Origin: an uncultured archaeon
GTDB taxonomy: Archaea; Asgardarchaeota; Lokiarchaeia; Sigyniarchaeales; SOKP01
Direction: 5' to 3'
NCBI GenBank assembly: GCA_964486045.1
Contig: CAZALK010000011.1
Span: 112,526-176,525, forward strand
Length of the DNA: 64,000 nt
Shown: in pieces, positions 44,343 through 46,324 of the stretch
How positions within the stretch are numbered: position 1 is the first letter of the stretch
Layout: the number at the start of each line of letters is the position of its first letter
The notes under the pieces: generated by a model
What the model was told of the DNA's origin: nothing
The model's database searches: none
What the model saw: the letters and a program-made list of their open reading frames with translations, nothing else
Program-made: the position numbers and the translations under genes

Positions 44343-45395
44343 TTAAGATTGGGTTAATAAATCGATTAAAGCTCTTGGAATTTCCTTATAATCGTTTACG
44401 GCATAGAATTTTCCTCTCCCTGCAACTGCTATCTCTCGACATGTGTTAATCCCTTGAGCTGCATCATTTTCGGCGGGCATACCTATAACATGTAATTTAG
44501 GGTATTGTTTCGCAATTTCAATCGGATTTTTTCCTCGATTAAATACCCCATCTGAGATTAATATTCCAAACCGGCTTTTCCTCACTTCCCTAGTTTTATT
44601 CAATTCTTTTAATCCCTTTTCAAGACCTAATTGAATATTAGTAAATCCCATAGCTTCTGAATCTAAGATATCATCTATAATTTTGAGGCTTGGTTTTTGT
44701 TGGTTAATTTTTTTTAACGTCATTGCAGTAGAATTGAACAAAACTATGGCATAATCTTCCTTTTCCATATTATATGCTAAAACTGAAGTTGTAAGGGCAG
44801 CGTTCAACAAAAGACGACCATACATACTCCCGCTAGTGTCTAATATCAGTACAACTTTTCTTTTTTGCCGTTTCCTTACGATTCCATAGATATCTTTATA
44901 ATTTATACTTTTCTCGTAAATTTTTAACGGATTATGTTGGATTGTCTCATCCAAACTAAATTCAGGCATTCCAATTTGGTAGTATGGAACTGATCTTTTA
45001 AATTTCCCTCTAATTCCCTTACTCGTTATCTTTAATGATAACTTTATGATGCTTTGACGGGCGAGGCGTCTAAAAATCGACTTATATTTTGCAGATATAG
45101 GACGCCTAATAAAAAAGTAAATTTCTGGCATAAAATCCCCTGATTCTTTAGCTTTTTCAGCAAAAAACCTTACACCATCTTCAGTGTCCAACATATCTGT
45201 TGCGGCATAAACGTTCGCTTTAAGTAAACCCATTATAGCTTCAAGATTTTTATGCTGTATTGCCAAATATGTTAAATCCCTTATTTCCTTGTATGCTAAC
45301 GAGTTGGCGAGGTGCTTGTAATAATCGGGTTTTTTCTTTTTTTTCCTTGCTATCTCATACTCTAAAACTTCTTTGTCTGGTCGACTCTCAGTCAT
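44343..45395 (-). CDS. vWA domain protein (CoxE/ChlD-like); frame open upstream to 45467
   Basis: MIDAS DTSGSM, TNI, ISDG; upstream in-frame acidic linker DDFSEEESEEIEK. Confidence 0.88.
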   Translation of the reverse strand: MTESRPDKEVLEYEIARKKKKKPDYYKHLANSLAYKEIRDLTYLAIQHKNLEAIMGLLKANVYAATDMLDTEDGVRFFAEKAKESGDFMPEIYFFIRRPISAKYKSIFRRLARQSIIKLSLKITSKGIRGKFKRSVPYYQIGMPEFSLDETIQHNPLKIYEKSINYKDIYGIVRKRQKRKVVLILDTSGSMYGRLLLNAALTTSVLAYNMEKEDYAIVLFNSTAMTLKKINQQKPSLKIIDDILDSEAMGFTNIQLGLEKGLKELNKTREVRKSRFGILISDGVFNRGKNPIEIAKQYPKLHVIGMPAENDAAQGINTCREIAVAGRGKFYAVNDYKEIPRALIDLLTQS

Positions 45396-45423
45396 TCTAA
45401 CATGCAGCCTTTTCTCAATCTCC

Positions 45424-45464
45424 TCAGATTCCTCCTCGGAGAAATCATCGATTATTGAAAATCC
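45424..45464 (-). other. Candidate -1 ribosomal frameshift signal (G_GAU_UUU plus downstream stem-loop)
   Basis: Slippery heptamer 45464-45458 followed by CAA TAA (the MoxR stop); hairpin GATTTCTC-CGAG-GAGGAATC at 45446-45427. Confidence 0.6.
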
Positions 45465-46324
45465 GATTTATTTAAAACAGCTAAAACAATACTAGATATT
45501 ATCTCTTTTTTAGATTGAGAGAGCCCATCTTCTAATTCGACTTTATTATATAATGCCATTACGGCAGCTTCAACCCAGTTGCTTGTACTATCACTATTAT
45601 CATATTGATTTATTAATGTAGCTAAATCAATAGCACCTCTAATCGAACTCCCTCTTCGGATTGAAATAGCTCCTCTAGTAGCTTGGATAACATTTTGAGA
45701 TATCGTTGTTATTTTTTTAGAGTTGATGTTACCTTCTTTTTCGATGATTTGAATTTCCTCATCTGGATTTTGATAATCTAAATTAATCCATATGAACCTA
45801 TCCTTTAATGCCTCCCCAAGAACTGTTACGCCAACGTGCGCGGCGGGGTTCTGGGTGGCGATGACGAAGAAATCTTTATGAGCCTTAATTGTTGTTAATT
45901 TAGGAATTTCGAGGATTCCTTCATCTAGGGCGGTCAATAATGAATTTTGTGTGTTTTCTGGCATCCTATTAATTTCGTTTATAAATAAACATCCCCCGTT
46001 AAGCATTGCTAAAGCTAAAGGTCCATTTTTATAAGAATCTTCATTATAACCCTTCGCAATTACTAGAGGAGGTTCATAATAACCAACTAGATTATGGGGG
46101 AGTAATTCTTCGCTACAGTCAACTCGATAAAAATTTGAATCATTGGAGCCATAATGTTCAGCGATAGCCTTAGCTAGCGTAGTTTTTCCGACACCCACAT
46201 TGCCTTCTAATAAAATATTCTTACCTACTGAATGAGCTAATATAATCTGTTTTAGTTCTTCTGTTCTACCTATGATCTTAAATTTTGCTTGTATTTCTGA
46301 CACAATACTGGTCCTATCAACCAT
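45452..46324 (-). CDS. MoxR-family AAA+ ATPase
   Basis: GNVGVGKT Walker A, FINEINR Walker B variant, ATQNP, ALKDRF. Confidence 0.92.
   Translation of the reverse strand: MVDRTSIVSEIQAKFKIIGRTEELKQIILAHSVGKNILLEGNVGVGKTTLAKAIAEHYGSNDSNFYRVDCSEELLPHNLVGYYEPPLVIAKGYNEDSYKNGPLALAMLNGGCLFINEINRMPENTQNSLLTALDEGILEIPKLTTIKAHKDFFVIATQNPAAHVGVTVLGEALKDRFIWINLDYQNPDEEIQIIEKEGNINSKKITTISQNVIQATRGAISIRRGSSIRGAIDLATLINQYDNSDSTSNWVEAAVMALYNKVELEDGLSQSKKEIISSIVLAVLNKSDFQ

What the first reader, a model, noticed from the sequence alone, without database searches (positions are those of the whole stretch)
44343..46324. Candidate programmed -1 frameshift fusing MoxR AAA+ to vWA
Seen (minus strand): MoxR ends ...TCG GAT TTT CAA TAA. 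The vWA frame is exactly -1 and open across this site (from 45467), encoding an acidic linker SIIDDFSEEESEEIEKRLHVR before the annotated ATG 45395, which has no clear SD. The heptamer G_GAU_UUU (45464-45458) is followed by an 8-bp hairpin GATTTCTC-CGAG-GAGGAATC, extendable with a bulge to begin 6 nt after the heptamer. Known: GGAUUUU is a functional -1 slippery site in plant RNA viruses, and chelatase chlD genes (AAA-acidic linker-vWA) use frameshifting to make two subunits. Inference: one locus yields a 290-aa ATPase and a ~660-aa AAA-vWA fusion at a set ratio.
Basis: partly seen in the sequence, partly recalled or inferred. Interest (0 to 1): 0.85.

Follow-up and report, generated by a model that had tools for sequence, protein, structure and literature searches.

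The report
Conserved archaeal frameshift with kink-turn signal
In Asgard archaea and their Korarchaeia relatives, an ATPase gene and its partner gene are very probably one recoded gene: ribosomes sometimes slip back one base to make a fused protein, and the slip site is followed by a small kinked RNA motif that may need the RNA-binding protein L7Ae to act.

Summary
Observation confirmed; the frameshift reading is strongly supported, but by sequence only. The window is a Promethearchaeota (Loki) genome. In 149 Asgard loci from 21 families the vWA frame is always open across the MoxR stop. 141 are in -1 phase, 8 in +1, none in frame. U_UUN is the last or penultimate MoxR codon in 138/141 (background 1.3%). 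The window's ATG is private (1/35 congeners). In-frame fused homologs exist. It is a kink-turn placed 8 or 11 nt after the slippery codon, with covarying stems in 13 Asgard families and 21/21 Korarchaeia-type loci, where it sits in another codon register. In the window's own family the motif is invariant but its fold is unresolved. Two lineages switched independently to +1 sites (UUU_UUU_CGN). The protein is not a chelatase. Likely purpose: a ring of mostly short ATPase subunits with few vWA-bearing ones. The closest precedent is frameshifted chlD. The scan noted this frameshift before on other genomes (e1-5590880), and the kink-turn in one family (e1-5554367). No product was detected; L7Ae involvement is inferred.

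The parts
45452..46324 (-). MoxR-type AAA+ ATPase ORF, 290 aa (zero-frame product)
   Evidence: (Pfam AAA_5 E 5e-21, AAA_3 E 1e-20)
46181..46204 (-). Walker A (GNVGVGKT)
45974..45979 (-). Variant Walker B: Asn-Glu instead of Asp-Glu, a family signature
   Evidence: N116, E117 invariant; 144/144 scored Asgard loci, Korarchaeia, close fused homologs
45458..45464 (-). Slippery heptamer G_GAU_UUU (-1)
45452..45454 (-). MoxR stop codon, one codon after the slippery codon
   Evidence: stop is 0 or 3 nt after the slip codon in 139/141 loci
45445..45449 (-). (G/A)AUGA, kink-turn bulged-strand (box C-like) motif, exactly 8 nt after the slippery codon
   Evidence: 60/60 loci of the window's family; columns invariant
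45421..45422 (-). Invariant GA, proposed partner strand of the tandem G.A pairs
45416..45454 (-). Proposed stimulator region: basal stem 45454-45450 with 45420-45416 closing the kink-turn; fold unresolved in this family
   Evidence: 92% of cells paired, no covariation beyond shuffles; synonymous conservation 0.90 against a maximum of 0.81 in 339 other windows
45427..45446 (-).
   Evidence: (79% paired)
45412..45443 (-). Alternative or pseudoknot helix UUCUC (45443-45439) with GAGAA (45416-45412)
   Evidence: (99% paired, one double change)
44343..45467 (-). vWA ORF in the -1 frame, 374 codons stop to stop: about 23 disordered acidic linker residues, a helical domain, then a vWA domain
   Evidence: (pLDDT <50 for residues 1-23, mean 84.5)
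45393..45395 (-). Annotated ATG of the vWA gene; private to this genome
   Evidence: ATG in 1/35 congeners, Leu codons in 33
44826..44840 (-). MIDAS motif DTSGS (Thr and Asp of the site also present)

Best explanation
One recoded gene makes two proteins by programmed -1 ribosomal frameshifting. Most ribosomes read GAU UUU CAA and stop, giving the 290-aa MoxR ATPase. A fraction slips back one base on G_GAU_UUU and continues through an acidic linker into the vWA ORF, giving a 660-aa AAA-linker-vWA protein. Shown by comparison: phase, open frame, slippery site, coding constraint without a start codon, fused homologs, and a kink-turn-shaped RNA element at fixed distance in most lineages. Inferred: that slippage occurs and is -1 rather than +2; that the kink-turn (weak as naked RNA) is the stimulator, probably stabilised by L7Ae; that the two products co-assemble into a hexamer carrying about one MIDAS domain, as NorQ6-NorD1 does with separate genes. 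The client is unknown; the best guess is remodelling of, or metal insertion into, a housekeeping protein complex.
For: Phase -1 in 141/149, +1 in 8, in frame in 0; vWA frame open across the stop in 149/149. U_UUN is the last or penultimate codon in 138/141 against 1.3% per codon. The first two heptamer bases covary as tandem slippage needs (GG, AA, CC, UU): 118/141 loci; 28/35 family-heptamer combinations against 11.2 shuffled. No ATG in the first 30 codons in 57/60 family loci, no ATG/GTG/TTG in 44/60, yet that region is conserved as protein with normal synonymous change and folds from about residue 28. 36/37 long homologs are in-frame MoxR-vWA fusions, up to 49% identical to this MoxR. Two independent lineages use +1 sites UUU_UUU_CGN instead. 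Kink-turn: C-stem 86% paired at sequence-anchored positions against 32-65% when slid; 49/81 non-family loci against 17.5 expected after synonymous shuffling; 7/8 pairs with double changes, 0/500 shuffles; 21/21 Korarchaeia-type loci with heptamer, 8 nt, GA, 5/5 stem and GAUGA in a non-Asp register; GAUGA/AAUGA absent in 8/8 +1 loci. G_GAU_UUU followed by a stop 3 nt later is the pea enation mosaic virus site (PMC5009743).
Against: No fusion peptide, ribosome footprint or reporter result. In the window's family the kink-turn is not above the synonymous expectation and no fold covaries beyond shuffles. A strict kink-turn is missing in several -1 families (f9, f14, f27, f33, most of f10). 23/141 heptamers (A_GAU, U_GAU, U_CAU) allow poor P-site re-pairing. 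This genome has an ATG at codon 21, and some families keep an ATG at codons 21-23 or an in-frame ATG inside the kink-turn. Loci are kin, so counts overstate independence.
Confidence: 0.88

Rival explanations
1. Frameshifting is real but purely RNA-driven: the hairpin or pseudoknot and the nearby stop codon suffice, and L7Ae plays no part. The GA/GAUGA pattern persists partly because the linker codes Asp/Glu.
For: In Asgard loci both GA elements coincide with Asp/Glu codons of the -1 frame; in the window's family synonymous shuffling keeps the pattern (28 observed against 25.6). Some families frameshift without a strict kink-turn. A stop 3 nt after G_GAU_UUU matters in a plant virus.
Against: In Korarchaeia-type loci GAUGA lies in a different register and is still kept 21/21. 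The 3-nt bulge ends in U throughout the anchored set although GAC is 23% of Asp codons (the anchor itself required this U). The naked fold is no more stable than shuffles in four of five tested loci.
Confidence: 0.43
2. Two ordinary translationally coupled genes: the vWA protein starts on its own (ATG 45395 here, near-cognate or downstream starts elsewhere), and the kink-turn represses initiation by hiding a Shine-Dalgarno sequence and AUG, as in the l7ae leader.
For: Korarchaeia-type loci have the AUG of GAUGA in the vWA frame with a G-rich, SD-like stem strand upstream, much like the l7ae leader (PMC5539422). The +1 family has an ATG at codon 6 in 7/8 loci; f10, f19, f29 and f30 keep an ATG near codon 22.
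Against: In Asgard loci that AUG is out of the vWA frame. The window's ATG is private; the codon overlapping the stop is ATA, GTA or TTA. In several families the first start lies 49-203 codons in, inside the folded domain. The model does not explain a heptamer held 8 nt from the kink-turn while the stop moves 2-11 codons away, nor the covarying heptamer bases. It may operate in addition in Korarchaeia.
Confidence: 0.08
3. Transcriptional slippage: RNA polymerase adds a U in the U-run, so part of the mRNA is in frame.
For: The site is a U-run, and an added U would give the same protein.
Against: The run is only 4 nt in 81/141 loci and 8 nt in 2; known cases need more than 8 T (PMC3711429). It would not need P-site covariation or a 3' RNA element. 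An RNA-library contig shows no indel, though contigs drop rare variants.
Confidence: 0.03
4. Assembly error or pseudogene: the real gene is an in-frame fusion.
For: In-frame fusions exist in the family.
Against: The same break occurs in 141 independently assembled genomes, including two cultured species. One RNA-library contig matches the P. syntrophicum locus with no gap.
Confidence: 0.01

Closest known systems
Frameshifted chlD / 'magnesium chelatase' genes (Antonov 2013 PMC3711429; Kuznetsov 2022 PMC9227772; Atkins 2016 PMC5009743)
   Same: AAA ORF and vWA ORF joined by a mostly -1, sometimes +1, frameshift; short and long subunit from one mRNA; in-frame fused homologs; occurs in archaea.
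   Different: Those use A-rich sites (A_AAA_AAR) with a poorly conserved 3' structure and mostly serve CobN/ChlH chelatases. This family uses X_XAU_UUU plus a kink-turn, has a MoxR-type ATPase with Asn-Glu Walker B, scores 25 bits against cut-offs of 500-779 on ChlD models, and occurs without CobN/ChlH. Asgard and MoxR are not mentioned in the papers read; the 2020 chlD paper was not held.
MoxR AAA+/vWA chaperone pairs NorQ-NorD and CbbQ-CbbO (PMC9976466)
   Same: MoxR ATPase plus MIDAS-bearing vWA partner with a disordered linker; NorQ is among the best single-domain sequence matches (56 bits) and NorQ-NorD complexes are among the fold matches. One NorD binds a NorQ hexamer.
   Different: Separate genes and proteins there; here the vWA part is tethered to an ATPase subunit by recoding. 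Client unknown.
G_GAU_UUU -1 sites of umbraviruses and dianthoviruses (PMC5009743)
   Same: Same heptamer, and a stop codon 3 nt after it as in pea enation mosaic virus.
   Different: Cellular archaeal gene; short local kink-turn element rather than viral structures.
Protein-stimulated frameshifting (cardiovirus 2A, PRRSV nsp1beta-PCBP; PMC5472766, PMC4937337, seen as abstracts only)
   Same: If L7Ae is needed, a bound protein rather than RNA alone would form the barrier.
   Different: Known cases are viral; here a cellular gene and a universal archaeal ribosomal/sRNP protein. Not demonstrated.
L7Ae-bound kink-turns in archaeal mRNAs, e.g. the l7ae leader (Daume 2017 PMC5539422)
   Same: Standard kink-turn: Watson-Crick pair, 3-nt bulge, two G.A pairs, in an mRNA.
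   Different: There it blocks initiation; here it lies at a fixed distance behind a slippery site.
Saccharolobus fucA1 (PMC8211752)
   Same: Archaeal chromosomal -1 frameshift.
   Different: The only case validated in archaeal cells according to that review; strain-restricted, A-rich site, truncated product not a subunit.

Membership tests
Programmed -1 ribosomal frameshift gene | Downstream ORF in -1 phase, open across the shift site, conserved | tested here: met
   141/149 Asgard loci and 21/21 Korarchaeia-type loci
Programmed -1 ribosomal frameshift gene | Correctly phased X_XXY_YYZ-type heptamer or a known variant | tested here: met
   A-site U_UUN 138/141; X=X in 118/141; G_GA variant documented
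Programmed -1 ribosomal frameshift gene | 3' stimulator about 5-9 nt after the site | tested here: met
   Covarying element with GA at +8/+11 outside the window's family; in the window's family only sequence constraint
Programmed -1 ribosomal frameshift gene | No conserved independent start for the downstream ORF | tested here: met
   Window's family; not met in Korarchaeia-type loci and doubtful in f10, f29, f30
Programmed -1 ribosomal frameshift gene | Transframe product or shifted ribosomes detected | not testable with these tools
   No proteomic or ribosome-profiling data available
Standard kink-turn (Kt-7, box C/D type) | 3-nt bulge, tandem G.A/A.G, Watson-Crick pair closing the C-stem, NC-stem | tested here: met
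   13 Asgard families and Korarchaeia-type loci; closing pair paired in 48/52 anchored loci
Standard kink-turn (Kt-7, box C/D type) | Same geometry in the window's own sequence | tested here: inconclusive
   A flipped register fits (92% paired) but has a short NC-stem and competes with another helix; no covariation
Standard kink-turn (Kt-7, box C/D type) | Kinked fold and L7Ae binding | not testable with these tools
   The genome encodes two PF01248 proteins; binding untested
ChlD/CobT chelatase medium subunit (fs-chlD) | Scores above cut-off on ChlD/ChlI/Cob-chelatase models | tested here: not met
   TIGR02031 25.3 bits (cut-off 499.55), TIGR02442 24.6 (779.45); fused homologs also far below
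ChlD/CobT chelatase medium subunit (fs-chlD) | Large subunit CobN/ChlH in the genome | tested here: not met
   No PF02514 match in G000 (99% complete); 29/101 genomes have one, whereas the vWA ortholog is present in most
ChlD/CobT chelatase medium subunit (fs-chlD) | A-rich shift site | tested here: not met
   U-rich site; only the more distant Methanomethylicus homolog L241 has a 10-A run
MoxR AAA+/vWA pair | MoxR-type AAA module next to a MIDAS vWA domain | tested here: met
MoxR AAA+/vWA pair | Canonical Walker B Asp-Glu | tested here: not met
   Asn-Glu in 144/144 scored loci; the catalytic Glu is kept
MoxR AAA+/vWA pair | Hexamer with one vWA domain, ATPase activity | not tested
   Inferred from NorQD

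The most novel reading that the evidence does not exclude
A cellular frameshift switch, older than the Asgard-Korarchaeia split or shared between them by transfer, in which L7Ae bound to a kink-turn at the ribosome's mRNA entrance drives the slip. The ratio of short to vWA-bearing subunits of an AAA+ ring would then follow free L7Ae, that is, the state of ribosome and sRNP assembly.
Probability: 0.42. Interest if true: 0.93.

Novelty: new variant of a known kind. Interest (0 to 1): 0.8.

Why it matters
The 2021 review lists one validated chromosomal -1 frameshift in archaea. This candidate spans most Asgard families sampled plus Korarchaeia and is present in both cultured Lokiarchaeia, so it is directly testable. 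It implies that many Asgard vWA genes are annotated with wrong starts and that a 660-aa fusion is missing from databases. It would extend the fs-chlD principle (subunit ratio of an AAA+ ring set by recoding) to a non-chelatase MoxR family. No paper in the library searched describes a kink-turn as a natural frameshift stimulator; L7Ae dependence would be a protein-stimulated frameshift in a cellular gene.

Tried and rejected
Loose kink-turn scan: 34% background, discarded for a position-fixed test. Chelatase identity: rejected, although JGI labels many homologs 'Mg-chelatase subunit ChlD'. Proto-midasin: the top PDB hit is a sum over repeated domains (best domain 38 bits against 56 for NorQ), rejected. 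Near-cognate start at the stop overlap: codon varies ATA/GTA/TTA. Rfam: nothing near a gathering score. Word-indexed search for longer homologs found no AAA-vWA fusion; the exhaustive search did. Other cassettes in this genome: none convincing among 27 candidates. The tree is the quick version, unrooted except by midpoint.

Full report
Observation. On the minus strand a 290-aa MoxR-type ATPase (46324-45452) ends GAT TTT CAA TAA. The vWA frame is -1, opens at 45467 and covers the heptamer G_GAU_UUU at 45464-45458. In this genome alone 2% of adjacent ORF pairs look similar, so the case rests on comparison. Named homologs place the genome in Promethearchaeota.

Conservation of phase. I fetched 150 loci from genus to phylum level; 149 hold both genes. 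The vWA frame is open across the MoxR stop in all 149; 141 are in -1 phase, 8 in +1, none in frame, down to about 43% MoxR and 32% vWA identity. One RNA-library contig matches the P. syntrophicum locus without gaps. Assembly error is excluded.

Slippery site. U_UUN is the last or penultimate MoxR codon in 138/141 loci, against 1.3% per codon elsewhere. The first two heptamer bases change together (G_GAU, A_AAU, C_CAU, G_GGU, C_CGU, U_UUU): equal in 118/141 loci and in 28/35 family-heptamer combinations, against 11.2 after shuffling. This is what tandem -1 re-pairing requires. The stop lies 0 or 3 nt after the slip codon in 139/141, as in pea enation mosaic virus (PMC5009743). U-runs are mostly 4-6 nt, too short for polymerase slippage.

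No independent start. ATG 45395 occurs in 1/35 congeners; 33 have Leu. 57/60 family loci have no ATG and 44/60 no ATG/GTG/TTG in the first 30 codons, yet these codons are conserved as protein with ordinary synonymous variation. The AlphaFold model has a disordered linker (residues 1-23), then a confident helical domain from about residue 28, then the vWA domain; later starts would cut that domain.

Fusions and frame switches. 36 of 37 long hits of an exhaustive profile search are in-frame MoxR-vWA proteins. P0152 (48% identical MoxR part, several assemblies) has no U-run at the junction. The +1 loci carry UUU_UUU_CGN and fall in two separate places inside the Asgard clade (quick tree). The fused P0148 nests in one of them and differs by a one-base deletion just after that motif; it rests on a single contig. 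Lineages changed direction or fused, while the layout that allows a joined product was kept. In the +1 family an ATG at codon 6 (7/8 loci) leaves independent initiation open.

The stimulator. I noticed by eye, before reading earlier notes, that outside the window's family the conserved element is GA at +8 or +11 after the slip codon, a stem-loop, the bulge GAU or AAU, GA and a second stem: a standard kink-turn. With anchors set by sequence only, the inner stem is 86% paired against 32-65% when slid. A strict test finds it in 49/81 loci of other families, against 17.5 expected when the protein is held fixed and codons are redrawn. A gap-free alignment of 20 loci shows double changes in 7/8 pairs, reached by 0/500 shuffles; kinship inflates this. 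In 21 Korarchaeia-type loci (18 distinct; cluster members named Korarchaeota and Methanodesulfokora) a heptamer, exactly 8 nt, GA, a 5/5 stem and GAUGA are all present while the stop moves from 2 to 11 codons away. There GAUGA is not in an Asp register, so the motif is not only a coding by-product. Its AUG is in the vWA frame, however, so initiation control as in the l7ae leader (PMC5539422) may also act there. The motif is absent from the +1 family and from several -1 families.

In the window's family. (G/A)AUGA sits at +8 in 60/60 loci, and synonymous sites there are more conserved than in any of 339 other windows. A flipped kink-turn gives 92% and a UUCUC/GAGAA helix 99%. None covaries beyond shuffles, so the fold here is unresolved: a switch or a pseudoknot is possible.

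The proteins. The ATPase is MoxR-type, nearest GvpN/NorQ models and far below chelatase cut-offs. The genome has no CobN/ChlH match. The family has Asn for Asp in Walker B. The MIDAS is intact. NorD binds a NorQ hexamer as one copy (PMC9976466), so by inference a low-efficiency frameshift would supply rings with about one tethered vWA domain. Neighbourhoods differ and are housekeeping (Cdc48, RpoL, ESCRT-II; Kae1, EMG1); no client is evident.

Comparison and verdict. It works like frameshifted chlD (PMC3711429, PMC9227772) but fails the chelatase membership tests. I found no paper on this family's frameshift or on kink-turn stimulators; the 2020 chlD paper could not be read. Earlier scan notes report the same frameshift on other genomes and the kink-turn in one Heimdall family; they are not independent evidence. 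Frameshift: 0.88. L7Ae-dependent kink-turn stimulation: about 0.42 overall. Novelty: new variant of a known kind. Interest 0.8.

Noticed in passing
window 45974-45979 (-) and all orthologs: Walker B reads Asn-Glu instead of Asp-Glu in 144/144 scored Asgard loci, Korarchaeia and close fused homologs; effect on ATPase activity unknown.
   Followed up: partly
G000:C28:10176-13650 (-): A paralogous MoxR followed by an 833-aa vWA ORF whose GTG overlaps the MoxR stop by 8 nt (+1 phase); its N-terminus looks by eye like an AAA lid domain. ORFs of about 830-880 aa match in many relatives.
   Followed up: partly
L234:2099-6172: A GC-rich Promethearchaeota contig carries two tandem MoxR-vWA pairs, both in -1 phase; the second has a clear kink-turn after a C-rich site.
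   Followed up: partly
L241:2960-3010: The Methanomethylicus homolog has a 10-A run in the -1 overlap, like fs-chlD sites, and groups with in-frame fused homologs in the tree.
   Followed up: partly
L231, L233, L242, L243: In one Asgard lineage the pair lies directly after Cdc48 and before RpoL and an ESCRT-II (EAP30) gene; +1 type or fused.
   Followed up: partly
L236-L245: In Korarchaeia the pair follows Kae1/TsaD, cytidylate kinase and DeoC and lies near EMG1, Rpr2 or eRF1: a translation-related neighbourhood.
   Followed up: no
L055, L078-L090, L095, L098 (family f10, includes Ca. Heimdallarchaeum): Double site G_GAU_UUU_UUC with a 6-U run, mostly without a kink-turn, and a conserved ATG at codons 21-23 after GAGG; the mechanism may differ.
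   Followed up: partly
window 42900-43490 (-) and 42081-42743 (+): A Rab-like small GTPase (Pfam Ras, E 5e-35) and an unassigned 220-aa ORF that looks longin-like by eye lie near the pair; eukaryotic-signature type genes.
   Followed up: no
window 46437-47453 (+): A 338-aa membrane protein without Pfam match is divergently transcribed from the MoxR gene.
   Followed up: no
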